A DNA stretch of 64,000 nucleotides. Origin: Candidatus Omnitrophota bacterium. Its GTDB lineage: Bacteria > Omnitrophota > Gorgyraeia > B26-G9. Under the pieces are notes generated by a model. The model made no database searches and was not told where the DNA came from. It was given only the letters and a program-made list of their open reading frames with translations. This document shows positions 1 to 59,667 of this stretch, in pieces. Made by a program: the position numbers and the translations under genes. The stretch is from positions 5,669-69,668 of the forward strand of contig JBDRPX010000037.1 in assembly GCA_043826565.1 (NCBI GenBank), written 5' to 3'. Positions within the stretch are counted from its first letter, which is position 1. Each line of letters begins with the position of its first letter.

Positions 1-72
1 TTTTAAAAAATAAAATTCTTTTTTCCTCTGTTTATCTATTTAGTTTTCGTCTTGTCTAATTTCTTTATCTAT

Positions 73-80
73 TGTATAAT
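73..80 (+). promoter_or_regulatory. extended -10 promoter (TGTATAAT) upstream of first gene
   Basis: tgtataat at 73-80, followed by SD aggagg (111-116) and ATG at 123. Confidence 0.4.
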
Positions 81-122
81 AATGAGTTAAGCACACTTGA
101 TTTCAACTTTAGGAGGAAGTGC

Positions 123-1730
123 ATGTCAAAATATTCATTTGATGCGGTAATTTTCGATATGGATGGCGTGATTACAAAAACCGCACTTGTCCATGCTCAG
201 GCATGGAAGATAGTGTTTGATGAGTATTTACGTATTTGCCAACAGCGTGATAATAAGCCATTTGAAGAATTTACTTACCAAAAAGACTATCTGACCTATG
301 TCGATGGTAAGCCGAGAGTAGAAGGCATTAAGAGTTTTCTTAAATCCAGAGGGATAACGCTTCCTTTAGGAGCGCCTGATGATGATGAGAAGGCAGAAAC
401 GGTTTACGGCATCGGCAACAAAAAGAATAAAAAATTTAAAGATGTTTTAAATACCGACGGAGTAGAGCTGTATACTGCGACTAAGGAGCTTATTAAAGCT
501 TTAAAATCCGCAGGAATAAAAGTTGGTGTTGTTTCATCGTCAAAGAATTGTGAGTTTGTCCTTAAATCAGCAGATGTTTTGCAGCTTATGGACACAAGGG
601 TTGATGGAGTAATTGCGCTTCAGGAAAATATCGCGGGAAAGCCTGAAGGGGATATGTTCGTAACCGCGGCTTTTAATCTCGGGACTATTCCCAGCCGGAG
701 TGTAGTTGTCGAAGATGCTATATCCGGTGTGCAGGCAGGCCGCAATGGCGGGTTTGGCCTGGTTATCGGAGTTGCCAGAAGCGATAATGTTGATGATTTA
801 AATAAAAACGGTGCGGATGTAGTTGTAACTTGTCTGGAAGCGATTACTCTTGATTGGATAGAGAAATGGTTTAACCGATCAGCTGTCTCTTTATTAGACG
901 CATGGGATGATGTCAATATGACCCGGCAGGGTTATGCTGATCTGAAGACAGATGATATTGTAATTAATCCTAAATATTTTCGTACACCGCGGGATATTTT
1001 AAAAGGGGACAAAAAACCGGTTTTTTTCCTTGATTATGACGGCACATTAACGCCGATTGTTTCCCGGCCTGACCTTGCGGTAATTTCCGATAAGATGAAG
1101 AGCACAGTTGCGGCTTTATCAGAAAAATGTACTACAGCTGTTGTCAGCGGAAGAATGCGGGAAGATGTGGAAAATCTTGTCGGCATAAAAGGACTTTTTT
1201 ATGCGGGAAGTCATGGGTTTGATATTCTTGGTAAAGGAGTTTCTATGGTTTTGCCTCAGGCGCAGAAAACTATTCCGGTTGTGACTGAGGTGATCGAGTG
1301 GCTTAAAAAGGAAATAGGCAGTATTGAAGGTATTATTATTGAGGAAAAAAAGTTTAGTACGGCAGTGCATTATCGCTTGGTTTCCGAGCAGCATTTGAAA
1401 AAGATAGAGCAGGCGGTAGCTCATGTTATAGAAAAGCATAAGGATTTGCGTTTGATGCGGGGGAAAATGGTATATGAGATCCTTCCGGCAATTGATTGGA
1501 ATAAAGGAAAAGCTGTATGCTGGATAATGAAGGCATTGAATATTTCCTGGGAAGAAGCTATCGTGGTATATATCGGTGATGATACTACGGACGAGGATGC
1601 GTTCCGGGCTGTTCGCAGCAGAGGTGTGTCCATATTGGTTTGCGATCAACAGCGGCCTTCATCTGCTGATTTCTGCTTGTCTTCTCCTGCTGAAGTGCTT
1701 AAATTATTTGAATTGCTATTAAAATTATGA
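123..1730 (+). CDS. bifunctional HAD protein: N-terminal beta-phosphoglucomutase-like domain fused to C-terminal trehalose-6-phosphate phosphatase-like (HAD-IIB) domain
   Basis: N-term FDAVIFDMDGVITKTALVHAQAWK matches the beta-PGM motif (DxDGV...AW); C-term FFLDYDGTLTPIV...GDDTTDE matches the OtsB/TPP family; SD aggagg 7 nt before ATG 123 (ORF track starts at 72). Confidence 0.75.
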   Translation: MSKYSFDAVIFDMDGVITKTALVHAQAWKIVFDEYLRICQQRDNKPFEEFTYQKDYLTYVDGKPRVEGIKSFLKSRGITLPLGAPDDDEKAETVYGIGNKKNKKFKDVLNTDGVELYTATKELIKALKSAGIKVGVVSSSKNCEFVLKSADVLQLMDTRVDGVIALQENIAGKPEGDMFVTAAFNLGTIPSRSVVVEDAISGVQAGRNGGFGLVIGVARSDNVDDLNKNGADVVVTCLEAITLDWIEKWFNRSAVSLLDAWDDVNMTRQGYADLKTDDIVINPKYFRTPRDILKGDKKPVFFLDYDGTLTPIVSRPDLAVISDKMKSTVAALSEKCTTAVVSGRMREDVENLVGIKGLFYAGSHGFDILGKGVSMVLPQAQKTIPVVTEVIEWLKKEIGSIEGIIIEEKKFSTAVHYRLVSEQHLKKIEQAVAHVIEKHKDLRLMRGKMVYEILPAIDWNKGKAVCWIMKALNISWEEAIVVYIGDDTTDEDAFRAVRSRGVSILVCDQQRPSSADFCLSSPAEVLKLFELLLKL

Positions 1731-1821
1731 AAGTTGAGTATTGAGAGTAGAATGTTGGTAGATAATTTTTACAATTTTCAACCTTCAATTTTCAACACTC
1801 TGTTTTAAAAAAGGTTTTACT

Positions 1822-4236
1822 GTGAAAAAAGATTTATTATGGAAACTTACTTATAATCGTTTTTCTCCGGAGGAGGAAGGATTAAGGGAATCCTTATGTA
1901 CCTTGGGTAATGGGTATATGGGAACTCGCGGCGCGGCAACCGAAGCAATTCCTTCGGAAATGCATTGTCCGGGCACCTATATAGCCGGTTTGTATAACCG
2001 GACTCCTACTGAGATTGCCGGCAGGACTATTTATAATGAAGATATGGTGAATTGTCCTAACTGGATACATATTGTCTTCCGGATCGGTAATGGCCGATGG
2101 ATTCGTCCTTCCTCAGCTAAAATTCTTTCCTATCGCCAGGAACTTGATATGCAGAAAGGTATTCTTACGCGTAATATTAGATTTCAAACTTCCAATGGGC
2201 AGAAGACATCAATTGAAGAAACGCGGCTGGTGCATATGGATAATCCGCATTTAGCGGCGATCAGATACATAATAACTCCGGAAAATTATAATGATATTAT
2301 TACCCTCCGGACAATGCTTGATGGCACGGTAGAGAATCTTAATGTGGAGCGTTACCGGGAGCTTAATACACATCATTTAACCTCTCATCACGCCGGCAGA
2401 TTTGCTAAAAATGGGATTTATCTTTGCGCAAAAACCAGTCATTCCAAGGTTGATATTTGTGTGGCGGAAAAGCTAAAAATATATATAGGAGATAAAAAGA
2501 TACAGCCGGTGATTGAGTTATTGAAGCGTCACAAAAATCAGACGATTGGGCAGGAGGCCCGTGTTTCTCTTCAAAAGGGGCAATCATTACGTATCGAAAA
2601 AATTGTTTCTATATATACATCTGGTGATGAAGGGATAGATTCTCCGAAAGAAGCAGCGATTAAAACAGTTAAAGTAGCTTCTAAGTTTAGGATGCTTTTG
2701 GAAACGCATCAAAAAGCCTGGGCAAGATTATGGGAAAAATTTGATATTAAAGTTGAGGGGCATAAATTTGCCCAGAAAGTATTAAGACTGCACATGTTTC
2801 ATTTATTGCAGACAGCTTCAACGCATAACGTTAAAGTTGATGCTGGTTTTCCGGCCCGGGGGTTGCATGGAGAGGCTTATCGCGGCCATGTTTTCTGGGA
2901 TGAGATGTTTGCGATGAAGTTCTTTTCTTTGAATAGCCCGGAAGTAGCGAAAGCATTGCTGATGTATCGGTATCGGCGGCTGTCTAAAGCCAGAGAATAC
3001 GCAAAAGAAAACGGATATAATGGGGCGATGTTCCCCTGGCAGAGCGGCTCCAGCGGCAGAGAAGAAACTCAGGAAGTCCATCTTAACCCGATGTCCGGGA
3101 AATGGGGCCCGGATTATAGCTGTTTGCAGAGGCATGTTTCTGTCGCTATCGCTTATAATATTTGGCGGCATTGGCGGATAACCGGTGACCTGGAGTTTCT
3201 GGTAAGTTATGCCGCAGAGATATTTTTATCGATCGCCCAGTTTTTTTCAAGTCTGGTTTGTTTTGATGAAAAGGACGGCAGATATCATACGGAAAGAGTG
3301 ATGGGGCCGGATGAGTTTCATGAGAAAATGCCGAATTCCTCTGAGCCGGGATTAAGAGACAATGCCTATACTAATATTATGATTGTCTGGGTATTGCTTA
3401 AAGCAGAAGAAGTTTTGGCGTTTTTGCCGGAAAAGGACAAGCAGCGTTTAATGAAAAAAATAAAACTTACTGCGGAAGAAATGCTGAGATGGGAAGATAT
3501 CTCCCGGAAGATGAATATAATTTTTGATGAAAAAGGTATTATTAGTCAGTTTGACGGGTATTTTCAATTAAAAGAATTAGACTGGAATAAGTATAAGAAA
3601 AAATACGATAATATCCACCGGATGGACAGAATTTTAAAGGCGGAAGGAAAAACTCCGGACGCATATAAATTATCTAAGCAGGCGGATGTGCTGATGATCT
3701 TCTATCTGCTGCGTTTTTCCGAAGTGCAGAAAATATTTAAACGCTTGGGGTATTCATGTGATATTAATAAGGTCAGAAAGAATTATGATTATTATGTCAA
3801 AAGAACATCCCATGGTTCTACTTTGAGCAAGGTTGTCCATTGTTTTGTAGCTCAGCTTATGGGCCGTGAACAGGAAGTGTGGAAATGGTTTTTGCAGGTG
3901 CTTGAATCCGATATTAATGATACCCAGAGCGGAACAACTCCGGAAGGAATCCATGCCGGTGTTCTGGGCGGTTCAATCGACGTGGTTATCCGCGGATTTG
4001 CGGGTATCGAGATGCTGGATGACCGGATAAAAATCACTCCCCGGGTGCCCCGGCAGCTTAAAAGAATATGTTTTAAGATTTGTTATCGGAAGCGTTGGAT
4101 TGACATAGAAGTAACTAAGAAAGAATTAAAAATTCATATTGGCGGCCGGCGTAAGGTTGTTAACATGATGCCGGTGGAGATTAATTCTAAGCTTCATCTT
4201 CTACCAGAAGGCCGGGCGGTTAAATTTTCTATATAA
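1822..4236 (+). CDS. glycoside hydrolase family 65 disaccharide phosphorylase (trehalose/trehalose-6-P/kojibiose/maltose phosphorylase family)
   Basis: 804 aa; GFPARGLHGEAYRGHVFWDE and the overall GH65 architecture; GTG start. Confidence 0.75.
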   Translation: MKKDLLWKLTYNRFSPEEEGLRESLCTLGNGYMGTRGAATEAIPSEMHCPGTYIAGLYNRTPTEIAGRTIYNEDMVNCPNWIHIVFRIGNGRWIRPSSAKILSYRQELDMQKGILTRNIRFQTSNGQKTSIEETRLVHMDNPHLAAIRYIITPENYNDIITLRTMLDGTVENLNVERYRELNTHHLTSHHAGRFAKNGIYLCAKTSHSKVDICVAEKLKIYIGDKKIQPVIELLKRHKNQTIGQEARVSLQKGQSLRIEKIVSIYTSGDEGIDSPKEAAIKTVKVASKFRMLLETHQKAWARLWEKFDIKVEGHKFAQKVLRLHMFHLLQTASTHNVKVDAGFPARGLHGEAYRGHVFWDEMFAMKFFSLNSPEVAKALLMYRYRRLSKAREYAKENGYNGAMFPWQSGSSGREETQEVHLNPMSGKWGPDYSCLQRHVSVAIAYNIWRHWRITGDLEFLVSYAAEIFLSIAQFFSSLVCFDEKDGRYHTERVMGPDEFHEKMPNSSEPGLRDNAYTNIMIVWVLLKAEEVLAFLPEKDKQRLMKKIKLTAEEMLRWEDISRKMNIIFDEKGIISQFDGYFQLKELDWNKYKKKYDNIHRMDRILKAEGKTPDAYKLSKQADVLMIFYLLRFSEVQKIFKRLGYSCDINKVRKNYDYYVKRTSHGSTLSKVVHCFVAQLMGREQEVWKWFLQVLESDINDTQSGTTPEGIHAGVLGGSIDVVIRGFAGIEMLDDRIKITPRVPRQLKRICFKICYRKRWIDIEVTKKELKIHIGGRRKVVNMMPVEINSKLHLLPEGRAVKFSI

Positions 4237-4298: not shown

Positions 4299-6131
4299 AT
4301 GATGATTGGTGCACACTATATTGATGATAATAAGTGTGAATTTACGGTTTGGGCTCCTTTTTTGAATGATGTTTCTTTGAAAATTGTTTCGCCGGATAGT
4401 ATGACTATTCCGATGCAAAAGGATGAACAGGGTTATTGGCGGATTATTGTCGAAAATATTCATGCGAACGTCTGCTACTTATATGAGCTTGATCATGCCC
4501 AGGAAAAACCCGATCCTGCGTCTTTTTATCAACCCAAAGGAGTACATGGCCCGTCACAGGTAATTAACCATAAAAATTTTTCTTGGGGAGACGGCGGATG
4601 GAATGGCATCTCCATTGATAAGATGATAATCTATGAGCTTCACGTAGGGACATTCACTCCGGAGGGAACCTTTGATGCGATTATTCCCCGGCTTGAGGAA
4701 TTAGTGGATCTTGGTATAAATACAATAGAAGTTATGCCGGTAGCGCAATTCCCGGGAACAAGGAACTGGGGGTATGACGGGGTGTACCCATATGCGGTAC
4801 AGAATTCTTATGGCGGCCCGGACGGTTTTAAACGGTTTATTAATGCCTGTCATAAAAAAGGCATAGCGGTAATTCTTGATGTTGTTTATAATCATCTTGG
4901 CCCGGAAGGTAATTACCTTTGCGAGTTCGCGCCATATTTTACTAATAAATATTATACCCCTTGGGGAAATGCTATAAATTTTGATGATGCCTATAGCCCG
5001 GGGGTAAGGAATTATTTTATTGAAAACGCTTTAAGCTGGCTTGAAAATTATCATGTGGACGGTTTGCGATTAGATGCGGTACACAGCATATATGATTTTG
5101 GGGCAAAACATATATTAGAAGAACTGGCGGAAAAAATTTATGATCTTTCTGTCCAAAAAACAAGGAAGCTGTATTTAATAGCCGAAAGCAATCTTAACGA
5201 TATCCGGATTATTAAGCCGGTCGGGGCCGGCGGTTATGGGATTGATGCCCAGTGGTGTGATGATTTTCATCATTGTCTTCACGTTTTACTTACCGGGGAG
5301 CAAACCGGATACTATGCTGATTACGGAAGTACCGGGCAAATGGTAAAATCCTTAAGAGAAGGATTTGTATATTCCGGTCAATATTCTTCTTTTAGAAAAA
5401 AATGTTACGGCAGTTCCTCTAAAGATATCCCGGCAAATCAGCTAATTGTTTTTTCACAAAATCATGATCAGGTGGGCAATCGTATGCTCGGAGACAGGCT
5501 TTCCGGGCTGGTATCATTTGAAGCTTTAAAACTGGCGGCAGCAGCAACAATCTTGTCTGTATATACTCCGATGATTTTTATGGGGCAGGAATATGGAGAA
5601 GAAACACCGTTTCAGTATTTTGTAGATCATTCGGACGAAGATTTAATTGCGGCAGTACGCCGGGGAAGAAAAGAAGAATTTGCCGCGTTTAAATGGAGCG
5701 GAAATCCTCCGGATCCGCAGGATGAGGGATCTTTTTTAGCTTCAAAATTGAAATGGGAACAAAAGAATGAGGGAAGGTACAAGATTTTATGGCAATTTTA
5801 TAAAATTCTTATTATGTTGAAAAAACGTATTCCTGCGATTTCTGATGGCGGAAAAACCCAGATGGAAGTATCGTATGATGAGACGAAAAAACTTATTTTT
5901 TGGAGAAGATGGTATAAACGAAGTGAAATTTTTTGTATAATGAATTTCAGCAAAGAAGATGCGCAGTGCCGCATCGTTCTTCCTTTAGGCAAATGGAAAA
6001 GATTGATAAATTCCTCGCAAGAGCAATGGATGGGAAAAGGGGCATTGCTGCCTGAGTATATAGAGAATAACCAGGAGATCCAGGTGCGCTCATTCGGGAT
6101 AGCTTTGTATGAGAAAGAATTACTAAAATAG
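4299..6131 (+). CDS. treZ: malto-oligosyltrehalose trehalohydrolase (GH13, CBM48 N-term)
   Basis: N-term CEFTVWAP...; GINTIEVMPVAQFPGTRNWGYDGV; ILDVVYNHLGPEGNYL; ~610 aa is typical of TreZ. Confidence 0.8.
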   Translation: MMIGAHYIDDNKCEFTVWAPFLNDVSLKIVSPDSMTIPMQKDEQGYWRIIVENIHANVCYLYELDHAQEKPDPASFYQPKGVHGPSQVINHKNFSWGDGGWNGISIDKMIIYELHVGTFTPEGTFDAIIPRLEELVDLGINTIEVMPVAQFPGTRNWGYDGVYPYAVQNSYGGPDGFKRFINACHKKGIAVILDVVYNHLGPEGNYLCEFAPYFTNKYYTPWGNAINFDDAYSPGVRNYFIENALSWLENYHVDGLRLDAVHSIYDFGAKHILEELAEKIYDLSVQKTRKLYLIAESNLNDIRIIKPVGAGGYGIDAQWCDDFHHCLHVLLTGEQTGYYADYGSTGQMVKSLREGFVYSGQYSSFRKKCYGSSSKDIPANQLIVFSQNHDQVGNRMLGDRLSGLVSFEALKLAAAATILSVYTPMIFMGQEYGEETPFQYFVDHSDEDLIAAVRRGRKEEFAAFKWSGNPPDPQDEGSFLASKLKWEQKNEGRYKILWQFYKILIMLKKRIPAISDGGKTQMEVSYDETKKLIFWRRWYKRSEIFCIMNFSKEDAQCRIVLPLGKWKRLINSSQEQWMGKGALLPEYIENNQEIQVRSFGIALYEKELLK

Positions 6132-6317: not shown

Positions 6318-8756
6318 ATGGAGATTAAAGTTATGAATAGATACTTATGTGTACATGGTCATTTCTATCAGCCTCCCCGGGAAAACCCCTGGTTAGAGGA
6401 AGTGGAACTTCAGGATTCGGCTTATCCTTTTCATGATTGGAATCAGCGGATTACTACTGAATGTTATGCTCCGAATGCTGCCTCCCGGATTTTAGATAAT
6501 GAAGATAAGATTACTGATCTTATCAGCAACTATGCTCAGATCAGTTTTAATTTTGGCCCAACACTGCTTTCCTGGATGGAACGGAATATGTCCGATACAT
6601 ACAAGATGATCCTGGAAGCGGATAAATTAAGCCAAAAGAACTTTTCCGGACATGGCTCGGCGATTGCTCAGGTTTATAACCATATGATAATGCCGCTGGC
6701 CAATACCAGAGATAAGCATACGCAGGTGGTTTGGGGGATAAAGGATTTCAAGTATCGTTTTAAAAGAGAACCGGAAGGGATGTGGCTTGCGGAAACAGCA
6801 GTGGATACTGAAACATTGGAAGTTTTAGCTGAGCATAATATAAAGTTTACAATTCTTTCTCCGTATCAGGCACAGAACGTTAAAACCATAGCCGCTCAGG
6901 AATGGACTGATGCCAGCGGAGGAAAAATAGATCCCAAAATGCCGTATCTGTGTATCCTTCCTTCGGGTAAAAAAATTAGTATTTTCTTTTACGACGGGCC
7001 GGTATCACGGGATATTGCTTTTGGAGGTTTATTGGATAACGGAGAAAAATTAGCCAGCCGGCTAGTGGGAACATTTTCCGATAATGAAGACCAGCCGCAG
7101 CTAGTGCATATTGCTACGGATGGGGAGACTTATGGCCATCATCATCATTACGGAGAGATGGCTTTATCATACGGATATCACTATATAGCGTCCCGACAGC
7201 TTGCTCATATTACGGTTTACGGAGAATATCTGGAAAAGTTTCCGCCGACTCATCAAGTGCAGATAATTGAGAATTCCTCGTGGAGTTGTATGCATGGAGT
7301 AGAGCGATGGCAAAGTGATTGCGGTTGTAAGCTCGGAGGAAATAACTGGAATCAGGCTTGGCGCGGGCCGCTGCGTAAGGCTATGGACTGGCTGCGGAAT
7401 AGTTTGACTAAAATTTATGATAATCAAATAGCTGAATATGTTAATGATCCGCACAAGGCCAGAAATGATTATATAGAAATCATATTAAACCGGACGGATA
7501 AAAATATCGATAAGTTTTTTGCCGAACATGGGGTGGCTACGCTGTCGGGTCAGGAAAAAACAAAAGTTTTAAAACTGCTGGAAATGCAGCGTCACGCAAT
7601 GCTGATGTATACAAGCTGCGGCTGGTTTTTTAATGAAATTTCCGGTATAGAAACGATCCAAATAATGCAGTATGCGGCCCGGGCTATTCAGCTGGCCAGA
7701 GAAGTCAGCGAAAAGGATCTGGAGCCGGAGTATATTAAAAGACTGCATAAAGCTCTCAGTAATCTTGAGGAATATGAGACCGGAGCTTTTATCTATGAGA
7801 AATTTGTAAAGCCAACGGTTATTGATCTGCATCGTGTGGGAGCGCATTATGCAGTATCGTCTCTTTTTGAAGAATATGAAAAAAAGAGCGACATCTATTG
7901 TTATACGGTCGAAAGCGAGGTTTATGAGCGTTCCCAAGCCGGCAGGCAGAAGATTGTTTTCGGGCGGGCGGCAATAAGGTCGAATATTACATATGAAGAG
8001 AATATTGTAAGCTTTGCGGCTTTGCATTTAGGGGATCATAACCTTTTCGGCGGGGTTCGTGATTATATGGGTGCGGAACCATTTGAAGAAATGCAGCAAC
8101 AGATAAAAGAAGCGTTTTTAAAAAGTAATATATCGGAGATAATCCATCTTATTGATACTCACTTTGGCAGCCATAATTATTCGTTATGGCATTTGTTTAA
8201 GGATGAACAGAGAAAAGTGCTTAATGAGATACTTGTTTCCACCCTTGATGAAATCGAAAATTCATTCCGCCAGATAAACGAACATCATTATCCGGTAATG
8301 CAGGTTATAAAAGAAATGAATATGCCTTTACCTAAAATCTTTTCGACGACACTTGAATTTGTCGTTAACTCTGATATTAGAAAGATGCTGCAAAATAATG
8401 AGACGGATCTGGAACGTTTGAAAAATCTTGTTAAAGAGGCGAGAAGGTGGTCGCTGGAGCTTGATCGTCCGATGTTGAAATATGTTGCCAGCAAAAGGAT
8501 TCTTAAGTTAATGAAAAAGCTGCAGCAAAGTCCGGAGGATGTCTCCGTAATAGAAGTTATTGAGGGATTGTTTAAGATCCTGCGTCCGCTGGGATTAGAG
8601 CTTAGTTTGTGGAAAACTCAAAATATTTACTTTTCTATTAATCAGCAGCTGCATGATTTAATGATTAGAAAAGCTGACCAAAAAGACAGGATTGCCAGGA
8701 AGTGGATTAAACATTTCGACACGCTGGGTAATTATTTGCGCGTAAGAAGCAAGTGA
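6318..8756 (+). CDS. glycoside hydrolase family 57 protein (long form with C-terminal DUF3536-like extension)
   Basis: HGHFYQPPRENPW is the hallmark GH57 N-terminus; 812 aa; start may be ATG 6333. Confidence 0.7.
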   Translation: MEIKVMNRYLCVHGHFYQPPRENPWLEEVELQDSAYPFHDWNQRITTECYAPNAASRILDNEDKITDLISNYAQISFNFGPTLLSWMERNMSDTYKMILEADKLSQKNFSGHGSAIAQVYNHMIMPLANTRDKHTQVVWGIKDFKYRFKREPEGMWLAETAVDTETLEVLAEHNIKFTILSPYQAQNVKTIAAQEWTDASGGKIDPKMPYLCILPSGKKISIFFYDGPVSRDIAFGGLLDNGEKLASRLVGTFSDNEDQPQLVHIATDGETYGHHHHYGEMALSYGYHYIASRQLAHITVYGEYLEKFPPTHQVQIIENSSWSCMHGVERWQSDCGCKLGGNNWNQAWRGPLRKAMDWLRNSLTKIYDNQIAEYVNDPHKARNDYIEIILNRTDKNIDKFFAEHGVATLSGQEKTKVLKLLEMQRHAMLMYTSCGWFFNEISGIETIQIMQYAARAIQLAREVSEKDLEPEYIKRLHKALSNLEEYETGAFIYEKFVKPTVIDLHRVGAHYAVSSLFEEYEKKSDIYCYTVESEVYERSQAGRQKIVFGRAAIRSNITYEENIVSFAALHLGDHNLFGGVRDYMGAEPFEEMQQQIKEAFLKSNISEIIHLIDTHFGSHNYSLWHLFKDEQRKVLNEILVSTLDEIENSFRQINEHHYPVMQVIKEMNMPLPKIFSTTLEFVVNSDIRKMLQNNETDLERLKNLVKEARRWSLELDRPMLKYVASKRILKLMKKLQQSPEDVSVIEVIEGLFKILRPLGLELSLWKTQNIYFSINQQLHDLMIRKADQKDRIARKWIKHFDTLGNYLRVRSK

Positions 8757-8772: not shown

Positions 8773-11562
8773 ATGAAAATTCCAATATCCACCTATAGAT
8801 TACAGTTTAATCCGGCATTTACTTTTGCGGATGCTAAAAAAAACCTTTCTTATTTAAAATCATTAGGAATATCCGATATATATGCTTCTCCGATTTTCAA
8901 GTCCCGTAAAGGGAGCATGCATGGTTATGATATTGTTGATCCTAATCAGCTTAATCCGGAATTGGGATCTACTGAAGATTTCAATGCGCTGACTGAAGAT
9001 GTGAAAAACCGTCAGATGGGATGGGTGCAGGATATTGTGCCCAACCACATGGCATTTGACCGTGAGAATGAGATGCTTATGGATGTGTTGGAGATGGGAA
9101 AGCTTTCCCCATATTATAAATATTTTGATATTGACTGGAACCATCCGTATGAGAGTATGCGGGGAAGGCTGCTGGCCCCGTTTCTGGGAAAATTCTATGC
9201 AGAATGTTTAGAAGCTGGGGAAATTAAACTTCAATACAGTGAAAAAGGATTAAGCATAAACTACTACTCATTACAATTTCCCTTAAAAATAGAATCTTAC
9301 AAAATGGTTTGTCTGTTTAATATCGACGAACTTAAACTGACATTAGGGCAGAGCCATCCGCTTTTTTTAAAATACCTTAATATTTGTTCTGTTTTTGATG
9401 TTGATGATAATTTGCCGGAGATGGAAAAATATAATCAGCTTAGGCAGGGGAAAGATCTGTTGCGGGAGCTTTATGTTAATGATGAGCTGATTAAAAATTT
9501 TATAGATGGTAATATCAAAGCTTTTAACGGGACACCGGCAGATGTGGAGAGTTTTAATCTGCTGGAGGATATTCTTTCACGTCAGTTATTCCGCTTGTCA
9601 TTCTGGAAGGTGGCTACCGAGGAAATTAATTATCGAAGATTTTTTAATATTAACGAATTAATCTGTCTGAGAATAGAAGATGATGACGTATATCGTCGTA
9701 CGCATGTACTTCTTGGCCGTCTTTTTGACGAGGGAAAAATTAGCGGGATTCGCGTTGACCATATTGATGGTTTGTATGACCCCGGGACATATTTGGAAAA
9801 ACTAAAAAAACAGTTTCCGGACAGCTACCTGCTTGTCGAAAAGATTTTAATCTCGCAGGAAAAGCTTCCGGGATGCTGGCCGGTGCAGGGCACCACCGGA
9901 TATGATTTCTTAAATTATGTGAACGGTTTATTTTGCTTAAAGAGAAATCAGCGAAAAATTAACCGGATATACAGTAAATTTACGTCTAATAATATTGCTT
10001 ATGATGAACTCGCGGGAAATAAAAAGAGATTAATAATCGGTAAGCATATGGCCGGGAATATTGATAATCTTGCTCATTTCATGAAAAAGATATCCAGTTA
10101 TAGCCGTTATGGCAGTGATATTACGCTTTACGGGCTTAGGAGAGCTTTGGTGGAAGTGTTGACCAATTTTCCGGTTTATCGGACATATATTAGCCGGGAT
10201 AATTTTAAAGATACGGATGTGCAATATGTTTTAAGCGCGATAAAAAAAGCAAAGCAGTCAATCCCCGGTCTTGTATATGAACTTGATTTTATAGAAAAAT
10301 TTCTTTTGCTTAAACCTGAGCACTATATCCGGGAGCAGGAACGGGGAGAAGTTACTGATTTTGTTATGCAGTTTCAGCAGGTCAGCGGGCCGCTGATGGC
10401 TAAAGGTGTAGAAGATACCGTATGTTACGTTTATAACAGGCTTTTGTCTTTAAATGAAGTTGGCGCAAGCCCGGATAAGTTTGGGATTTTTTCTAGTGAT
10501 TTTCATTATTTTAGTAAAAGAAAGAAAAAAAAATGGCCGTATTCTTTAAACTCTTTATCAACGCATGATACCAAAAGAGGAGAGGATGTCCGGGCGAGAA
10601 TTAACGTGCTTTCGGAAATACCCGCGGTCTGGGAGCAGAATATAAAGCATTGGCATAGACTAAATAAAAAGTTTAAAACTTCGGTAAATGGAATGCTGGC
10701 TCCGGATAAAAATGATGAATACTTTTTATATCAGACCTTAATTGGGGCATTCCCGTTTTTTGAAAAGCAATACCCGAGATTTTTAGACCGGGTTAAAGAA
10801 TATATTATTAAAGCGGTCAGAGAGGCGAAAGTTCATACCGCGTGGTTAAAGCCGGATATTGACTATGAGAACGCTTATATTTCATTTGCCGAGGAATTGC
10901 TGAAATTTTCTCCGGCAAGTGTGTTTATGAATGAGTTCTTATCGTTTCAAAAAAAAGTTGCGCATTATGGGATTTTTAATTCTTTAGCCCAGGCCTTGAT
11001 TAAAATAACCGCTCCCGGAGTTCCGGATTTTTATCAGGGAACTGAACTATGGGATCTTACTTTGGTTGATCCGGATAACCGCCGTCCGGTTGATTTTGGG
11101 CTAAGACAAAAGTTTTTAGCGGATATTATTGAAAAAGCGGGTACGGATTTGCCGGGATTGATTTCTGAATTATGCAATACTCATGAAGATGGCCGGATAA
11201 AATTATTTTTAATATATATGGCTTTGCGGGCAAGAAAAGAAAACAGTATCCTTTTTCGCGAAGGCGCATATGTTCCCATAAATACCGGAGGTAAATACAA
11301 AGATCATATTATTGCGTTTGCCAGAAAATATGATAATATGATAGCCATAACTGTTATTCCGAGATTTCTCGCTTTGCTTATAAAGGAGAGTGAATATCCA
11401 TTTGGGGAATATGTTTGGCAGGATACGTATGTGGTGAGCCCTGAAGATGGTAAGTGTAAATGGAAGAATGCATTCACCGGTGAAGAAATAGAAGGAAAAA
11501 AGATTTTATCAGTGAGTGATATTTTTAAATCTTTTCCGGTTGCGTTATTAATTAGCGTTTAG
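8773..11562 (+). CDS. treY: malto-oligosyltrehalose synthase
   Basis: 929 aa; N-term IPISTYRLQFNPAFTFADA...LGISDIYASPIF is typical of TreY. Confidence 0.8.
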   Translation: MKIPISTYRLQFNPAFTFADAKKNLSYLKSLGISDIYASPIFKSRKGSMHGYDIVDPNQLNPELGSTEDFNALTEDVKNRQMGWVQDIVPNHMAFDRENEMLMDVLEMGKLSPYYKYFDIDWNHPYESMRGRLLAPFLGKFYAECLEAGEIKLQYSEKGLSINYYSLQFPLKIESYKMVCLFNIDELKLTLGQSHPLFLKYLNICSVFDVDDNLPEMEKYNQLRQGKDLLRELYVNDELIKNFIDGNIKAFNGTPADVESFNLLEDILSRQLFRLSFWKVATEEINYRRFFNINELICLRIEDDDVYRRTHVLLGRLFDEGKISGIRVDHIDGLYDPGTYLEKLKKQFPDSYLLVEKILISQEKLPGCWPVQGTTGYDFLNYVNGLFCLKRNQRKINRIYSKFTSNNIAYDELAGNKKRLIIGKHMAGNIDNLAHFMKKISSYSRYGSDITLYGLRRALVEVLTNFPVYRTYISRDNFKDTDVQYVLSAIKKAKQSIPGLVYELDFIEKFLLLKPEHYIREQERGEVTDFVMQFQQVSGPLMAKGVEDTVCYVYNRLLSLNEVGASPDKFGIFSSDFHYFSKRKKKKWPYSLNSLSTHDTKRGEDVRARINVLSEIPAVWEQNIKHWHRLNKKFKTSVNGMLAPDKNDEYFLYQTLIGAFPFFEKQYPRFLDRVKEYIIKAVREAKVHTAWLKPDIDYENAYISFAEELLKFSPASVFMNEFLSFQKKVAHYGIFNSLAQALIKITAPGVPDFYQGTELWDLTLVDPDNRRPVDFGLRQKFLADIIEKAGTDLPGLISELCNTHEDGRIKLFLIYMALRARKENSILFREGAYVPINTGGKYKDHIIAFARKYDNMIAITVIPRFLALLIKESEYPFGEYVWQDTYVVSPEDGKCKWKNAFTGEEIEGKKILSVSDIFKSFPVALLISV

Positions 11563-11627: not shown

Positions 11628-13124
11628 ATGGAAAAACGAGGCAGCGGCATATTATTGCATATTTCGTCATTACCTTCTGATTTTGGCATCGGAGATATGG
11701 GCGAAGCGGCCTACAAATTCGTTGATTTTTTAGCCCAGGCAAAACAAAAATACTGGCAGGTACTCCCCTTTAACCCGACAAGTTTGATCAACGGCAGCTC
11801 TCCCTACAGCAGTGTCTCGGCGTTTGCCACCAATACATTATTGATCAGCCCGGAATTGTTGTGTAAGGACGGATTTCTTACCTCGGGGGAAATAGATTCA
11901 TCCTCTCAGAACGGCAGCAGGGCGGTTGACTATGAAAATGTTTTGGAATTAAAAGCCAAATTATTTGCCATAGCTTTCGAACGGTTTGAAAAACTTAAAG
12001 ATAAAGCTGGTTTTAATAATTTTTGTTCTGAAAATAAATATTGGTTGGATGATTTTGCCGCGTTCATCGCTTTTAAAGAACATTTTCAGGACTGCATTTG
12101 GACTGACTGGCCGAAGGAGATCAGGGATCGGGATAAAAAATCCATGAATGAGCTTAAAGAGCAGCTGACCCGGCAGATTAAAAAAGAAAAGTTTCTTCAA
12201 TATTTGTTTTTAAAACAATGGATTGGTTTGAAGAATTATTGTAACCAAAAAGGCGTTCAAGTTATCGGAGATATCCCGATCTATGTCACCTATGATAGTG
12301 TTGACGTGTGGAAAAATCCGGAAATTTTTAAACTTGATGAAAATAAAAACCCGGTTTATGTTGCCGGTGTACCTCCGGATTATTTTAGCAAAACCGGTCA
12401 GTTGTGGGGTAATCCGGTATATGATTGGGATGTGCTTGCTGAAAATAATTATTCCTGGTGGATGCAGCGAATAAATCATAATTTAAAACTTTTTGATTTA
12501 ATAAGGATTGATCATTTCCGGGGATTTGTGGATTATTGGCAGGTGAAAAACGCAGAGAAAACAGCAATTAATGGAGAGTGGCAAAAAGCTCCGGCAAAAG
12601 AATTCTTTAAAGCTTTGCTAAAAGAATTTCCCGAACTGCCGTTAATTGCGGAAGATCTGGGGATTATTACTGATGAGGTAAGGGAAACAATGAAATACTT
12701 TGGGTTCCCGGGGATGAAGATAGTGATGTTTGCCTTCGGAGAGGATGATCCGGAGCATCCTTATTTGCCGCAGAATTTTGCGACTAATTGTGTTGCTTAT
12801 ACCGGAACGCATGATAATAATACCGCCCGGGGCTGGTTTGAGCAAGAAACAACCCCGGAAGACCGAAAAAGACTTTCTGATTGTTTAGGTAAGGAAACAA
12901 ATGCCGATAAATTGCACTGGGATCTTATTGAGTTGTTAATGAAGTCTGCAGCGCATACAGTTATTTTTCCTTTGCAGGATGTTTTTGGCCTTCCACAAGC
13001 GGATCGTATGAATATCCCGGGAACAGTGGGCAATAACTGGAAATGGCGTTTTAAACCGGAACAAATTACTCCTCAGGTAACAGTTCAGCTGGCAAAAATG
13101 ACCGAGCAATATTCTCGCACCTAA
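11628..13124 (+). CDS. malQ: 4-alpha-glucanotransferase (amylomaltase, GH77)
   Basis: GSGILLHISSLPSDFGIGDMG N-terminus and GH77 motifs. Confidence 0.85.
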   Translation: MEKRGSGILLHISSLPSDFGIGDMGEAAYKFVDFLAQAKQKYWQVLPFNPTSLINGSSPYSSVSAFATNTLLISPELLCKDGFLTSGEIDSSSQNGSRAVDYENVLELKAKLFAIAFERFEKLKDKAGFNNFCSENKYWLDDFAAFIAFKEHFQDCIWTDWPKEIRDRDKKSMNELKEQLTRQIKKEKFLQYLFLKQWIGLKNYCNQKGVQVIGDIPIYVTYDSVDVWKNPEIFKLDENKNPVYVAGVPPDYFSKTGQLWGNPVYDWDVLAENNYSWWMQRINHNLKLFDLIRIDHFRGFVDYWQVKNAEKTAINGEWQKAPAKEFFKALLKEFPELPLIAEDLGIITDEVRETMKYFGFPGMKIVMFAFGEDDPEHPYLPQNFATNCVAYTGTHDNNTARGWFEQETTPEDRKRLSDCLGKETNADKLHWDLIELLMKSAAHTVIFPLQDVFGLPQADRMNIPGTVGNNWKWRFKPEQITPQVTVQLAKMTEQYSRT

Positions 13125-13151: not shown

Positions 13152-13180
13152 TTGCTAAAAAGAAAAAACTATGGTATAAT
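13152..13180 (+). promoter_or_regulatory. sigma70-type promoter TTGCTA-17-TGGTATAAT driving the riboswitch leader
   Basis: -35 ttgcta 13152-13157; extended -10 tggtataat 13172-13180. Confidence 0.55.
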
Positions 13181-13221
13181 TAAGTAGATTTAAAAAGTAT
13201 GTAATTTCTTAAATAAATCCG

Positions 13222-13362
13222 AAAAGGCAAAACTCAAGAAATTGAGTGACGCAAAGCCACGGGTCTAAAGCTTGATGCTAGGATCGCCGGGTATATCGAT
13301 AACGCGAAACTAGGAGCTTGTGATGGCCGGACTGCCGAAGAAAAAGGTAGTCTGGTTTTTTA
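13222..13362 (+). promoter_or_regulatory. c-di-GMP-I (GEMM) riboswitch aptamer (13222-13296) plus intrinsic terminator expression platform (13327-13361)
   Basis: GGCAAAAC-CUCAA-GAAA-UUGAG-UGACGCAAAGCC-ACGGGUCUAAAGC...GCCGGGU aligns almost position by position with the Vibrio Vc2 aptamer (GGCAAACC-P1 GNRA hairpin-GGGACGCAAAGCC-...CUAAA...). Downstream hairpin CCGGACUGCC-gaagaaaaa-GGUAGUCUGG followed by UUUUUU. Confidence 0.8.
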
Positions 13363-16905: not shown

Positions 16906-16998
16906 AGTGGATTGCAAATTGCAAATAACAAATTGCAGATTAAACTAATGAAAATAAAAAAACAAATAAACTACATAATAATATTTTTGCTGGTGCAG
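16891..16998 (+). repeat. 108-nt junction repeat copy 1 (3' end of upstream gene + spacer + 5' signal-peptide coding of next gene)
   Basis: gaacaggcgatatagagtggattgcaaattgcaaataacaaattgcagattaaactaatgaaaataaaaaaacaaataaac...ctggtgcag, near-identical to 19720-19827. Confidence 0.9.
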
Positions 16999-19734: not shown

Positions 19735-19827
19735 AGTGGATTGCAAATTGCAAATAACAAATTGCAGATTAAACTAATGAAAATAAAAAAACAAATAAAC
19801 CACATAATAATATTTTTACTGGTGCAG
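19720..19827 (+). repeat. 108-nt junction repeat copy 2
   Basis: about 2 mismatches versus 16891-16998. Confidence 0.9.
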
Positions 19828-21069: not shown

Positions 21070-21073
21070 GTAA

Positions 21074-21105
21074 AGAGTAGTGAGTAGCAAGTAGAGAGTA
21101 GAGAG
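21074..21105 (+). repeat. tandem heptamer array (AGAGTAG TGAGTAG CAAGTAG AGAGTAG) directly after stop codon
   Basis: 7-nt period places TAG in all three frames. Confidence 0.7.
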
Positions 21106-21123
21106 AAAGATAAAAAGTAAATA

Positions 21124-23568: not shown

Positions 23569-23573
23569 TCAAA

Positions 23574-23591
23574 GAGTAGCGAGTAGAGAGA
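23574..23591 (+). repeat. GAGTAG heptamer repeat (AGAGTAG CGAGTAG AGAG) after stop codon
   Basis: same motif as 21074-21105 and 30676-30710. Confidence 0.6.
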
Positions 23592-23607
23592 ATATATAAC
23601 GTAAGAT

Positions 23608-59665: not shown

Positions 59666-59667
59666 TT

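What the first reader, a model, noticed from the sequence alone, without database searches (positions are those of the whole stretch)
123..4236. Split counterpart of the mycobacterial OtsB1 architecture: (beta-PGM::TPP fusion) + GH65 phosphorylase, a possible UDP-glucose-independent route to trehalose
Gene 1 fuses a beta-phosphoglucomutase-like HAD domain with a trehalose-6-phosphate-phosphatase-like HAD domain. Gene 2 is a GH65 phosphorylase, a family that uses beta-glucose-1-phosphate. Established chemistry: beta-PGM interconverts G6P and beta-G1P, and GH65 trehalose-6-P phosphorylase catalyses beta-G1P + G6P <-> T6P + Pi. With a TPP this would give net trehalose synthesis from G6P alone. 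The same three domains occur fused in M. tuberculosis OtsB1 (function unknown). The cluster continues with treZ, GH57, treY and malQ, which suggests several converging trehalose/alpha-glucan routes.
Basis: partly seen in the sequence, partly recalled or inferred. Interest (0 to 1): 0.6.

Follow-up and report, generated by a model that had tools for sequence, protein, structure and literature searches.

The report
Split three-enzyme trehalose-6-phosphate module
Two adjacent genes in an uncultured Omnitrophota bacterium encode a beta-phosphoglucomutase fused to a trehalose-6-phosphate phosphatase, followed by a trehalose-6-phosphate phosphorylase; the pair is conserved across bacteria and archaea, is sometimes fused into one protein, and could make trehalose from glucose-6-phosphate without UDP-glucose, though the direction in the cell is not proven.

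Summary
Gene 1 (123-1730) is a 535-aa fusion of an Rv3400-type beta-phosphoglucomutase domain and an OtsB-type trehalose-6-phosphate phosphatase domain. Both have intact catalytic motifs. Gene 2 (1822-4236) is a GH65 phosphorylase. Its six published specificity positions read DQGQDE, the signature of trehalose-6-phosphate phosphorylases. It groups with the characterised Lactococcus enzyme (100/100 NJ bootstraps) and away from kojibiose, glucosylglycerol and maltose phosphorylases.

The pair is not a local oddity. In 74 of 80 related loci, from more than ten phyla including archaea, the same GH65 type lies immediately downstream. In 12 loci the genes form one ORF: 10 are complete OtsB1-sized triple fusions, one is cut by its contig end and one lacks the phosphatase domain.

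The most likely function is nucleotide-sugar-independent trehalose synthesis (2 G6P -> trehalose + 2 Pi). This is inferred from domain logic, the fusions, the neighbouring trehalose-synthesis genes and published reversibility of the phosphorylase. It has not been demonstrated.

Absence of otsA could not be tested genome-wide. In 10 of 80 relatives an OtsA gene lies within 10 kb, often directly adjacent. Reviews up to 2025 list this phosphorylase only as degradative.

The parts
52..80 (+). Promoter-like site (TTGTCT-17-TATAAT) upstream of gene 1
   Evidence: Top-scoring consensus match, 10 of 12. The scan as a whole found no more sites than shuffled sequence, so this is weak evidence.
111..116 (+). 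Ribosome-binding site AGGAGG, 6 nt before ATG 123
   Evidence: Read directly from the sequence.
123..1730 (+). Gene 1: bifunctional beta-phosphoglucomutase / trehalose-6-phosphate phosphatase (535 aa)
   Evidence: Deposited as 'trehalose-phosphatase [Candidatus Omnitrophota bacterium]'.
141..857 (+). N-terminal HAD-IA domain, Rv3400-type beta-phosphoglucomutase (residues ~7-245)
   Evidence: Best solved relative is 8h5s 'Beta-phosphoglucomutase' (E 4.6e-61); L. lactis beta-PGM scores ~4e-21. D12/D14 (DxD), T20, H24, G62, R65, S138-S140-K141-N142, K173 and E197-D198 are conserved in 80 relatives.
1011..1724 (+). C-terminal HAD-IIB domain, trehalose-6-phosphate phosphatase (residues ~297-534)
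   Evidence: TIGR00685 equivalog 186.7 bits vs cut-off 68. M. tuberculosis OtsB2 structure 5gvx, E 4.5e-46. D304-Y-D306-G-T308, S342-G-R344, H364, K461 and G-D486-D487-x-T-D490-E491 are conserved.
1822..4236 (+). Gene 2: GH65 trehalose-6-phosphate phosphorylase type (804 aa)
   Evidence: Pfam GH65 N/m/C domains. Best solved relative is 9lb6 (E 2.4e-145), which is 63% identical to L. lactis T6PP. Specificity positions D74, Q407, G409, Q417, D431, E608 read DQGQDE. Catalytic acid E498. Phosphate site R346, S666, T667, H711. Y353. -1 subsite W359, D360, K619, Q620.
4299..6131 (+). treZ, malto-oligosyltrehalose trehalohydrolase
   Evidence: TIGR02402 751 bits, cut-off 539.
6318..8756 (+). GH57 + DUF3536 alpha-glucan enzyme (specificity not determined)
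   Evidence: PF03065 and PF12055; no NCBIfam hit.
8773..11562 (+). treY, malto-oligosyltrehalose synthase
   Evidence: TIGR02401 927 bits, cut-off 499.
11628..13124 (+). malQ, 4-alpha-glucanotransferase (GH77); last gene of the putative operon
   Evidence: PF02446 608 bits; NF011080 695 bits. It is followed by a 625-bp gap holding a new promoter-like site and a riboswitch.

Best explanation
The two genes encode three activities that share one intermediate, trehalose-6-phosphate (T6P). [quoted passage not shown] The GH65 enzyme of gene 2 runs in the synthetic direction and joins beta-G1P to a second G6P, giving T6P and phosphate. The C-terminal domain of gene 1 removes the phosphate irreversibly and pulls the sequence forward. 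The net reaction is 2 G6P + H2O -> trehalose + 2 Pi, with no UDP- or ADP-glucose. In this organism the pair heads a probable six-gene operon that also holds TreY/TreZ/MalQ and a GH57 enzyme. Trehalose could therefore come both from hexose phosphate and from stored alpha-glucan. What is shown: the domain identities, the intact catalytic residues, the T6P-type specificity signature, and the conserved adjacency and fusion. What is inferred: each activity in this particular protein, the direction of flux in the cell, and an osmolyte or stress role.
For: (1) GH65 identity. The specificity positions read DQGQDE, the published T6PP motif that was validated on the Caldithrix abyssi enzyme (PMC8537180). 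The characterised L. lactis T6PP and 9lb6 give the same string in my alignment. CsKP gives EEAP.., B. subtilis MP gives KV.N.E, matching their published motifs, so the mapping is sound. The clade {pair-linked GH65 + LlT6PP + 9lb6} had 100/100 NJ bootstrap support against KP, GGP, MP and two paralogues. The catalytic acid and phosphate site are present, so it is a phosphorylase, not a hydrolase or transferase.
(2) Both HAD domains are catalytically intact here and in 80 relatives.
(3) Conserved linkage. In 74 of 80 loci from Omnitrophota, Planctomycetia, Atribacterota, Desulfobacterota, Proteobacteria, Bacteroidota, Gemmatimonadota, Actinomycetota, Nitrospirota, Binatia and archaea, a T6PP-type GH65 lies directly downstream on the same strand. 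Two of the six exceptions are contig ends. Twelve pairs are single ORFs.
(4) Pathway logic. Only in the synthetic direction are all three activities consecutive steps. Degradation needs only T6PP and beta-PGM, as in L. lactis, which has no phosphatase in the pathway (PMC7608592).
(5) Recurrent neighbours are trehalose-synthesis or osmotic genes: OtsA(-TPP) 10 loci, TreS 7, TreT 3, MscS-type channel 4, TreY/Z about 4. No PTS or sugar-uptake family was found among the 20 recurrent neighbour clusters that were annotated.
(6) Where OtsA-TPP fusions lie beside the pair, each candidate T6P source carries its own phosphatase.
(7) Reversibility. T6PP forms T6P from beta-G1P + G6P in vitro (PMC8537180; the cascade table in PMC11442529) and in vivo in beta-PGM-deficient L. 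lactis (PMC7608592). The synthetic direction is reported as strongly favoured (PMC13121652).
(8) Ca. Ethanoperedens thermophilum carries a triple fusion (L022). It dominates an enrichment culture in which trehalose is abundant, and the culture's core consortium assimilated added trehalose poorly (PMC13597711).
Against: No experiment shows flux in this direction in any organism. The beta-PGM equilibrium lies far towards G6P (from memory, about 28:1), so the first step is uphill and depends on the later steps pulling it. The only physiologically studied T6PP (L. lactis) is catabolic, and a 2025 review lists TrePP only as T6P degradation (PMC12125463). In M. tuberculosis the related beta-PGM Rv3400 is needed for growth on trehalose, so there beta-G1P flows towards G6P (bioRxiv 10.1101/2025.11.20.689507). 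OtsA lies within 10 kb of the pair in 10 of 80 loci, so the module is not simply a substitute for OtsA. Most Ethanoperedens genomes also encode OtsA. The N-domain misses the NCBIfam beta-PGM equivalog cut-off (95.4 vs 189.4) and narrowly misses the family cut-off (152.5 vs 153.35). The tree contained no characterised trehalose or nigerose phosphorylase sequence.
Confidence: 0.55

Rival explanations
1. Catabolic module as in Lactococcus. T6P + Pi -> beta-G1P + G6P (GH65), then beta-G1P -> G6P (beta-PGM domain), recovering carbon from T6P or trehalose. The phosphatase domain would have a separate or regulatory role.
For: This is the only physiologically established role of T6PP (PMC7608592; PMC12125463). 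M. tuberculosis Rv3400, the closest solved relative of the N-domain, is needed for trehalose use, and its loss raises beta-G1P 30-fold. The L. lactis T6PP and 9lb6 are not separated from the pair-linked GH65s: monophyly of the pair-linked set got only 11/100 bootstraps.
Against: T6P entry requires a trehalose PTS or kinase. None is in the 64-kb window, and none was found among the 20 annotated neighbour clusters, although PfkB sugar kinases of unknown specificity occur in 4 loci. Triple fusions occur in methanogen-related archaea; that these lack a sugar PTS is my own knowledge and was not tested. A fully intact phosphatase that competes for the same substrate is conserved, and often covalently fused, in 80 of 80 relatives. 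Co-expression with OtsA, TreY/Z or TreT would create a futile cycle.
Confidence: 0.22
2. Reversible T6P buffer or safety valve. The near-equilibrium T6PP/beta-PGM pair ties the T6P pool to G6P and Pi. It would prevent toxic T6P build-up when OtsA outruns the phosphatase, and could supply T6P when hexose phosphates are high.
For: T6PP is reversible in vitro and in vivo. The pair lies directly beside OtsA or OtsA-TPP in several loci. T6P toxicity in otsB2-depleted mycobacteria is from my own knowledge and was not checked here. Some Omnitrophota T6PPs carry a receiver domain, which implies regulated activity.
Against: It does not explain why a phosphatase rather than only a mutase is fused to the system in genomes that already have OtsA-TPP. 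It does not explain loci with no OtsA nearby (70 of 80). It overlaps largely with the main explanation and differs only in how much net flux is carried.
Confidence: 0.15
3. The GH65 is not T6P-specific. It could be a trehalose, kojibiose or other alpha-glucoside phosphorylase, with the phosphatase domain belonging to an ordinary OtsA/OtsB route encoded elsewhere.
For: Overall identity to L. lactis T6PP (35%) is only slightly above that to C. saccharolyticus kojibiose phosphorylase (33%). Databases name these proteins 'trehalose/maltose hydrolase-like predicted phosphorylase' or 'alpha,alpha-trehalase'. No enzyme of this exact sub-branch was compared directly; the Kuenenia and Caldithrix sequences were not obtainable.
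Against: All six specificity positions match T6PP and none of the published KP, MP, TP or oligoNP motifs. The clade has 100/100 bootstrap support. True KP-like and TP-like paralogues in L004 and L039 carry the other motifs and fall outside it.
Confidence: 0.06

Closest known systems
Lactococcus lactis trehalose-6-phosphate phosphorylase (TrePP, Q9CID5, EC 2.4.1.216) with beta-phosphoglucomutase PgmB
   Same: Same GH65 sub-family: identical DQGQDE specificity positions, the same R-S-T-H phosphate site, and one clade at 100/100. It is paired with a beta-PGM and uses the same reversible chemistry.
   Different: Only 35% identical. In Lactococcus the pathway is fed by a trehalose PTS and is catabolic, with no phosphatase. 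Here a T6P phosphatase is fused to the mutase, no PTS is nearby, and the mutase is the long-cap Rv3400 type rather than the PgmB type.
In-vitro characterised T6PPs of Ca. Kuenenia stuttgartiensis (CAJ75349.1) and Caldithrix abyssi (APF18594.1), GH65 subgroup 22
   Same: Environmental, non-lactic-acid bacteria. The Caldithrix enzyme has the same DQGQDE motif and makes T6P from beta-G1P + G6P (PMC8537180; PMC11442529).
   Different: They were characterised only as isolated enzymes. Their gene context and physiological role are not discussed in the texts I could read. I could not obtain their sequences to measure identity or check for a neighbouring mutase-phosphatase fusion.
Mycobacterium tuberculosis OtsB1 (Rv2006), 1327 aa, function unknown
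   Same: Ten relatives of this pair are complete single ORFs of 1323-1482 aa in the order mutase-phosphatase-GH65, including two Nocardia. All catalytic residues and a T6PP-type motif (SQGQDE in Nocardia) are intact.
   Different: Here the GH65 is a separate gene, 91 bp downstream. Rv2006 itself was not examined. OtsB1 is reported to lack phosphatase activity, a claim since questioned for lack of data.
M. tuberculosis Rv3400 beta-phosphoglucomutase (probably PDB 8h5s)
   Same: Closest solved relative of the N-terminal domain (E 4.6e-61, aligned over 232 residues including the long cap insert). Beta-PGM activity is demonstrated genetically and by metabolomics.
   Different: Rv3400 is a stand-alone protein and its shown role is trehalose utilisation. 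That 8h5s is Rv3400 is inferred from its name, its length and the D27-x-D29 numbering, not from a citation.
OtsA/OtsB (TPS/TPP) trehalose pathway
   Same: Same final step and the same phosphatase family (TIGR00685; 5gvx OtsB2, E 4.5e-46). T6P is the intermediate.
   Different: T6P would be made by a phosphorylase from beta-G1P rather than by a GT20 transferase from UDP- or ADP-glucose. No GT20 gene is in the window.
Engineered one-pot T6P synthesis (maltose phosphorylase + T6PP + beta-PGM; Taguchi 2020 as tabulated in PMC11442529)
   Same: Uses T6PP in the synthetic direction together with beta-PGM.
   Different: It is artificial. Beta-G1P comes from maltose phosphorolysis, so the beta-PGM runs towards G6P, and no phosphatase is included.

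Membership tests
GH65 trehalose-6-phosphate phosphorylase (EC 2.4.1.216; subgroup 22 of De Beul et al. 2021) | GH65 N-terminal, (alpha/alpha)6 catalytic and C-terminal domains | tested here: met
   PF03636, PF03632 and PF03633 all above cut-off.
GH65 trehalose-6-phosphate phosphorylase (EC 2.4.1.216; subgroup 22 of De Beul et al. 2021) | Catalytic acid Glu (CsKP E483) and the conserved -1 subsite (W343, D344, K596, Q597) | tested here: met
   E498 in GPDEFHE; W359, D360, K619, Q620. Definitions from PMC11442529.
GH65 trehalose-6-phosphate phosphorylase (EC 2.4.1.216; subgroup 22 of De Beul et al. 2021) | A phosphate-binding site (K/R, two consecutive Ser, His) in place of the hydrolase catalytic base, and Tyr (not His) at CsKP 337 | tested here: met
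   R346, S666, T667, H711 and Y353. The second Ser is Thr, exactly as in the characterised L. lactis T6PP and 9lb6.
GH65 trehalose-6-phosphate phosphorylase (EC 2.4.1.216; subgroup 22 of De Beul et al. 2021) | Specificity-determining positions 64/392/394/402/416/585 (CsKP numbering) read DQGQDE | tested here: met
   D74, Q407, G409, Q417, D431, E608 = DQGQDE. All 69 scorable sequences in the alignment (the window GH65 plus pair-linked relatives) have xQxQD at the first five positions, and 64 of 68 scorable have E at the sixth.
GH65 trehalose-6-phosphate phosphorylase (EC 2.4.1.216; subgroup 22 of De Beul et al. 2021) | Phylogenetic grouping with characterised T6PP rather than other specificities | tested here: met
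   100/100 NJ bootstraps with LlT6PP and 9lb6, against CsKP, BsGGP, BsuMP and KP-like and TP-like paralogues. Limitation: no characterised trehalose or nigerose phosphorylase was in the tree.
GH65 trehalose-6-phosphate phosphorylase (EC 2.4.1.216; subgroup 22 of De Beul et al. 2021) | Phosphorolysis of T6P and synthesis from beta-G1P + G6P, with no activity on trehalose | not testable with these tools
   Needs an enzyme assay.
Beta-phosphoglucomutase (EC 5.4.2.6, HAD-IA) | NCBIfam models: bPGM equivalog TIGR01990 and family model TIGR02009 | tested here: not met
   TIGR01990 95.4 bits vs cut-off 189.4. TIGR02009 152.5 vs 153.35, missed by 0.85 bit. So it is not a canonical PgmB-type equivalog.
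Beta-phosphoglucomutase (EC 5.4.2.6, HAD-IA) | Close similarity to a beta-PGM with demonstrated activity (Rv3400 type) | tested here: met
   8h5s 'Beta-phosphoglucomutase', E 4.6e-61 over residues 8-239. Rv3400 activity.
Beta-phosphoglucomutase (EC 5.4.2.6, HAD-IA) | Catalytic DxD, cap Gly/Arg, distal phosphate site SxSKN, Lys, and Mg site ED (L. lactis D8, D10, T16, H20, G46, R49, S114-N118, K145, E169, D170; this numbering is from memory) | tested here: met
   D12, D14, T20, H24, G62, R65, S138, S140, K141, N142, K173, E197 and D198 are all present. All are near-invariant in 80 relatives except K141, which varies K/R.
Trehalose-6-phosphate phosphatase (OtsB, HAD-IIB, TIGR00685) | Equivalog model above its cut-off | tested here: met
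   TIGR00685 186.7 bits vs 68.05; PF02358 177.7 vs 27.
Trehalose-6-phosphate phosphatase (OtsB, HAD-IIB, TIGR00685) | HAD motifs I-IV (DxDGT, S/T-G-R, K, GDDxTDE) | tested here: met
   D304, D306, G307, T308, S342, G343, R344, K461, D486, D487, D490, E491. Alignment to M. tuberculosis OtsB2 (5gvx).
OtsB1-type triple-domain protein (mutase-phosphatase-GH65 in one chain) | All three domains in a single polypeptide | tested here: not met
   A stop at 1730 and 91 bp separate the genes. Ten related loci are complete single ORFs of 1323-1482 aa carrying all three domains. This locus is the split form.
Lactococcus-type catabolic trePP-pgmB system | Linked trehalose PTS (T6P supplied by uptake) and no phosphatase | tested here: not met
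   No PTS domain was found among the window ORFs of at least 150 aa that were scanned or among the 20 annotated neighbour clusters. A phosphatase is fused to the mutase. The whole genome was not available.

The most novel reading that the evidence does not exclude
The mutase-phosphatase + T6P-phosphorylase module is a previously unrecognised trehalose biosynthesis pathway that needs no nucleotide sugar (2 G6P -> trehalose + 2 Pi). It is widespread in bacteria and archaea, with relatives of the fusion protein in at least 543 species-representative genomes. It would be favoured in energy-limited anaerobes because it saves the UTP or ATP spent on sugar activation. It would also be the long-sought function of mycobacterial OtsB1.
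Probability: 0.45. Interest if true: 0.8.

Novelty: new variant of a known kind. Interest (0 to 1): 0.62.

Why it matters
Trehalose is a major stress protectant, and its synthesis routes (OtsAB, TreYZ, TreS, TreT, TreP) are regarded as a closed list. Current reviews treat T6P phosphorylase purely as a degradative enzyme of Gram-positive bacteria and fungi (PMC12125463). If this module runs forward, three things follow.

- It adds a route that needs no nucleotide sugar. That suits the energy-limited anaerobes in which it is common: Omnitrophota, Atribacterota, sulfate reducers and alkane-oxidising archaea.
- Metagenomic inferences of who can make trehalose would change. Such studies currently score the GH65 as 'TreP/MalP' or 'trehalase' and the fusion as plain 'trehalose-phosphatase'.
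- It gives a concrete, testable hypothesis for M. tuberculosis OtsB1, a DosR-regulon protein whose function has stayed unknown for two decades.

If it runs backward, the conserved covalent coupling of a T6P-consuming phosphatase to a T6P-degrading pair would itself need explaining.

Tried and rejected
- The third and last large homologue search used a Planctomycetia-labelled GH65 (L007). The aim was to reach the characterised Ca. Kuenenia T6PP and inspect its gene context. It returned the same Omnitrophota-like set, with no Kuenenia. Dead end.
- Literature look-ups for PDB 9LB6/9LB7/8H5S and Rv3401 found nothing useful. The likely source paper for the T6PP structure (Feng 2025) is not held.
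- A supplement search of the Antarctic Omnitrophota paper, to see which trehalose genes were scored per MAG, found nothing. Its main table lists Ca. Saelkia and Ca. Susulua, both of which carry the pair or the fusion (L005, P0078), without 'trehalose synthesis'. That is suggestive only.
- The idea that treY/treZ/malQ/GH57 are part of the conserved module was rejected. Only about 4 of 80 loci have treY or treZ nearby and none has the GH57 gene.
- The idea that the module replaces OtsA was not supported as a rule. OtsA lies within 10 kb of the pair in 10 of 80 loci. Genome-wide absence of otsA in this organism could not be tested; only the 64-kb window was, and it has no GT20, TreS or TreT.
- The idea that the GH65 is a kojibiose, maltose or trehalose phosphorylase was rejected on motif and tree.
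- The promoter and terminator scans gave no more sites than shuffled sequence. They were used only to note the best site upstream of gene 1.
- Structure prediction and fold search were not used. Sequence evidence was already decisive for family assignment.

Full report
**Source and gene calls**

The window comes from an uncultured Candidatus Omnitrophota bacterium. Both proteins are 100% identical to NCBI MAG proteins, named 'trehalose-phosphatase' and 'glycosyl hydrolase family 65 protein' (P0001, P0121). The same gene order occurs on an independent Logan contig.

Gene 1 runs from ATG 123 to 1730 (535 aa), with AGGAGG six bases upstream of the start. The longer TTG-72 ORF from the mechanical list is not supported by homologues or by the gene call.

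Gene 2 runs from GTG 1822 to 4236 (804 aa). It is followed on the same strand, across short gaps, by four genes:
- treZ, 4299-6131
- a GH57+DUF3536 gene, 6318-8756
- treY, 8773-11562
- malQ, 11628-13124

After malQ there is a 625-bp gap that holds a new promoter-like site and a riboswitch. A six-gene operon is therefore plausible but not proven.

**Gene 1: two intact HAD domains**

Residues ~7-245 are most similar to the solved 'Beta-phosphoglucomutase' 8h5s (E 4.6e-61). They are far less similar to L. lactis beta-PGM (about 4e-21). The name, length and D27-x-D29 numbering of 8h5s fit M. tuberculosis Rv3400. Loss of Rv3400, or its D29A mutation, raises beta-G1P 30-fold (bioRxiv 10.1101/2025.11.20.689507).

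The following residues are all present and conserved across 80 relatives:
- the DxD nucleophile and acid
- the cap Gly and Arg
- the SxSKN distal phosphate site
- the Lys
- the Mg-binding ED pair

By NCBIfam the domain is not a canonical PgmB equivalog: TIGR01990 scores 95.4 against a cut-off of 189.4, and the family model TIGR02009 is missed by 0.85 bit. I therefore call it an Rv3400-type beta-PGM.

Residues ~297-534 pass the T6P phosphatase equivalog TIGR00685 (186.7 vs 68). They align to M. tuberculosis OtsB2 (5gvx, E 4.5e-46) with HAD motifs I-IV intact.

**Gene 2: a phosphorylase of the T6P type**

It has the catalytic acid (E498) and the phosphate site R346/S666/T667/H711 in place of a hydrolase base. 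It has Tyr, not His, at the position that marks the GH65 glycosyltransferase. The definitions come from PMC11442529; the residues come.

De Beul et al. (PMC8537180) defined six specificity-determining positions (CsKP 64, 392, 394, 402, 416, 585). Their published motifs are:
- DQGQDE for T6P phosphorylase, confirmed experimentally on the Caldithrix abyssi enzyme
- EEAPxx for kojibiose phosphorylases
- KV[MF]NES for maltose phosphorylases
- TRIGPP for the trehalose phosphorylase they tested

The window protein reads DQGQDE (D74, Q407, G409, Q417, D431, E608).

I recovered the L. lactis T6PP (Q9CID5) and B. subtilis MP sequences from the supplement of PMC13121652. I transcribed 9lb6, CsKP and BsGGP from the PDB alignments. 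In one MAFFT alignment:
- LlT6PP and 9lb6 read DQGQDE with the same R-S-T-H phosphate site
- CsKP reads EEAPWE
- BsuMP reads KV-N-E

This validates the position mapping. 9lb6 is labelled 'Trehalose-6-phosphate hydrolase' but is 63% identical to LlT6PP.

Overall identity of the window GH65 is 35% to LlT6PP and 33% to CsKP. The assignment therefore rests on the motif and the tree, not on raw identity. In NJ bootstraps the clade {pair-linked GH65s + LlT6PP + 9lb6} separated from KP, GGP, MP and two paralogues in 100 of 100 replicates. Monophyly of the pair-linked enzymes excluding the lactic-acid-bacterial ones got only 11 of 100. The tree lacked characterised trehalose and nigerose phosphorylases.

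**The pair is a widespread, conserved module**

A scan of one genome per species, using an alignment of the fusion, found at least 543 genomes encoding a relative of the fusion protein. The 80 best loci span Omnitrophota, Planctomycetia, Atribacterota, Elusimicrobia, Desulfobacterota, Alpha- and Gammaproteobacteria, Bacteroidota, Gemmatimonadota, Actinomycetota, Nitrospirota and Binatia. They include the cultured Thioalkalivibrio, Thiohalocapsa, Legionella saoudiensis and Marivirga lumbricoides, and Nocardia. They also include archaea: Ca. Ethanoperedens, Ca. Argoarchaeum and Methanomassiliicoccus.

Synteny:
- In 74 of 80 loci a GH65 gene follows immediately on the same strand, usually within a few tens of bases or overlapping.
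- Two of the six exceptions are contig ends.
- All 69 scorable sequences (the window GH65 plus pair-linked relatives) carry xQxQD at the first five specificity positions, and 64 of 68 scorable have E at the sixth. Forty-three read exactly DQGQDE. The catalytic acid and phosphate site are conserved.

Fusions:
- In 12 loci the two genes are one ORF.
- Ten are complete triple fusions of 1323-1482 aa.
- L018 is cut by its contig end (819 aa).
- L081 is a 1059-aa mutase-GH65 fusion without the phosphatase.
- The complete triple fusions include two Nocardia genes. Nearly all catalytic residues are intact and the motif is T6PP-type.

An exhaustive search of 1.84 billion cluster representatives gave 2074 proteins at E <= 1e-30. 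Most of the top 150 are two-domain proteins of about 500-550 aa, and several are 1298-1336 aa. M. tuberculosis OtsB1 is 1327 aa and still of unknown function (PMC11046441; bioRxiv 2024.11.12.623260). This locus is the split form of that architecture.

**Gene context**

Beyond the pair, no neighbour is universal. Recurrent neighbours within 10 kb:
- OtsA or OtsA-TPP fusions (GT20), 10 loci, often directly abutting the pair
- PEP synthase / PPDK, 9 loci
- TreS, 7 loci
- an MscS-type mechanosensitive channel, 4 loci
- PfkB sugar kinase, 4 loci
- TreT, 3 loci

TreY or TreZ occur in about 4 loci, and the GH57 gene in none. The TreYZ/MalQ linkage seen in the window is therefore lineage-specific. No PTS or sugar importer was found among the 20 recurrent neighbour clusters I annotated. 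The 64-kb window holds no GT20, TreS or TreT, and I found no PTS domain among the ORFs scanned.

**Mechanism**

The best-supported reading is net synthesis:
1. G6P <-> beta-G1P (mutase domain).
2. Beta-G1P + G6P -> T6P + Pi (GH65).
3. T6P -> trehalose + Pi (phosphatase domain).

Reasons:
- Only in this direction are the three conserved, frequently fused activities consecutive steps. The degradative Lactococcus system needs no phosphatase and has none (PMC7608592).
- T6P can otherwise arise only from OtsA or a PTS. Degrading OtsA-made T6P would be futile, and no PTS is associated.
- Where an OtsA-TPP fusion lies beside the pair, each candidate T6P source carries its own phosphatase.
- The chemistry is established. 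T6PPs make T6P from beta-G1P + G6P in vitro (PMC8537180; the cascades in PMC11442529). They do so in vivo in beta-PGM-deficient L. lactis. The synthetic direction is reported as strongly favoured (PMC13121652).
- The hosts are often from saline or soda-lake sediments or are energy-limited anaerobes. Ca. Ethanoperedens thermophilum, which has a triple fusion, dominates an enrichment culture rich in trehalose, and that culture's core consortium assimilated added trehalose poorly (PMC13597711).

Against this reading:
- The mutase equilibrium favours G6P (about 28:1, from memory).
- All physiological data on T6PP and Rv3400 are catabolic.
- OtsA often co-occurs with the pair.
- Nothing has been measured in any carrier of the module.

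I put net synthesis at about 0.55. A catabolic role (about 0.22) and a reversible T6P buffer (about 0.15) are the main rivals. A different GH65 specificity is unlikely (about 0.06).

**Novelty**

Each enzyme family is known, and T6PPs from Kuenenia and Caldithrix have been characterised in vitro. I found no paper that describes the mutase-phosphatase fusion, its near-universal pairing with T6PP-type GH65, or a biosynthetic role. A 2025 review of T6P metabolism lists TrePP only as degradation in Gram-positive bacteria and fungi. A 2026 metagenomic study scores these GH65s as 'TreP/MalP'. The library excludes most subscription journals, so prior description cannot be ruled out. I rate the finding a new variant of a known kind: known enzymes in an undescribed, widely conserved pathway arrangement.

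Noticed in passing
window 13216-13300 (+), with ORFs 13750-25593: A c-di-GMP-I riboswitch (RF01051, 67.5 bits, E 4.7e-11) lies in the 625-bp gap after malQ, just downstream of a promoter-like site at 13152-13180. It precedes a run of large same-strand ORFs (1051, 940, 814 and 661 aa) that have no Pfam match at all.
   Followed up: no
P0197 (residues 838-948); L003 11616-14009 and beyond; also P0218, P0225, P0229, P0237, P0248: Several Omnitrophota T6PP-type GH65 proteins carry a C-terminal response-regulator receiver domain. They still sit next to a mutase-phosphatase fusion, which suggests phosphorelay control of the phosphorylase.
   Followed up: partly
L081 5189-8239: In a Bacteroidales MAG the beta-PGM domain is fused directly to the T6PP-type GH65 (1059-aa ORF) with no phosphatase domain in between.
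   Followed up: partly
L004 5728-8540; L039 4470-6692: Two loci carry extra GH65 paralogues beside the T6PP pair. L004 has a stand-alone beta-PGM-like gene plus a kojibiose-phosphorylase-like GH65 (motif EEAPHR). L039 has a GH65 with a trehalose-phosphorylase-like motif (TR-A-H). Both fall outside the T6PP clade.
   Followed up: partly
GH65 tree: The two lactic-acid-bacterial T6PPs (L. lactis and 9lb6) are not resolved as an outgroup to the pair-linked enzymes (11/100 support for monophyly of the latter). The well-known catabolic enzyme may be a derived offshoot of the wider, fusion-linked clade.
   Followed up: partly
window 6318-8756: A GH57+DUF3536 protein sits between treZ and treY, where TreX-type GH13 debranching enzymes are usually found. 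It may supply linear glucan for TreY. It has no NCBIfam match.
   Followed up: no
P0002 (871 aa): A metagenomic protein made of three tandem beta-PGM-like HAD domains, 57% identical to the N-domain of gene 1.
   Followed up: no
window 1-64000: Almost every ORF of at least 150 aa is on the + strand, and GC skew is positive throughout (0.08-0.33). Other identifiable genes: hflX-like GTPase 25574-26884, hrcA-grpE-dnaK-dnaJ 26993-31877, uvrA 43153-46047, a 7TM histidine kinase 55951-58122, pilus/T2SS-like genes 58219-61023, and phosphotransacetylase 62466-63461. No tRNA genes were found.
   Followed up: partly
L005 (Ca. Saelkia tenebricola) and P0078 (Ca. Susulua stagnicola): Saelkia carries the pair and Susulua carries the fusion. 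The paper describing these two named Antarctic-lake Omnitrophota lists only glycogen synthesis for them, not trehalose synthesis (PMC8542988). Canonical routes may be absent there.
   Followed up: partly
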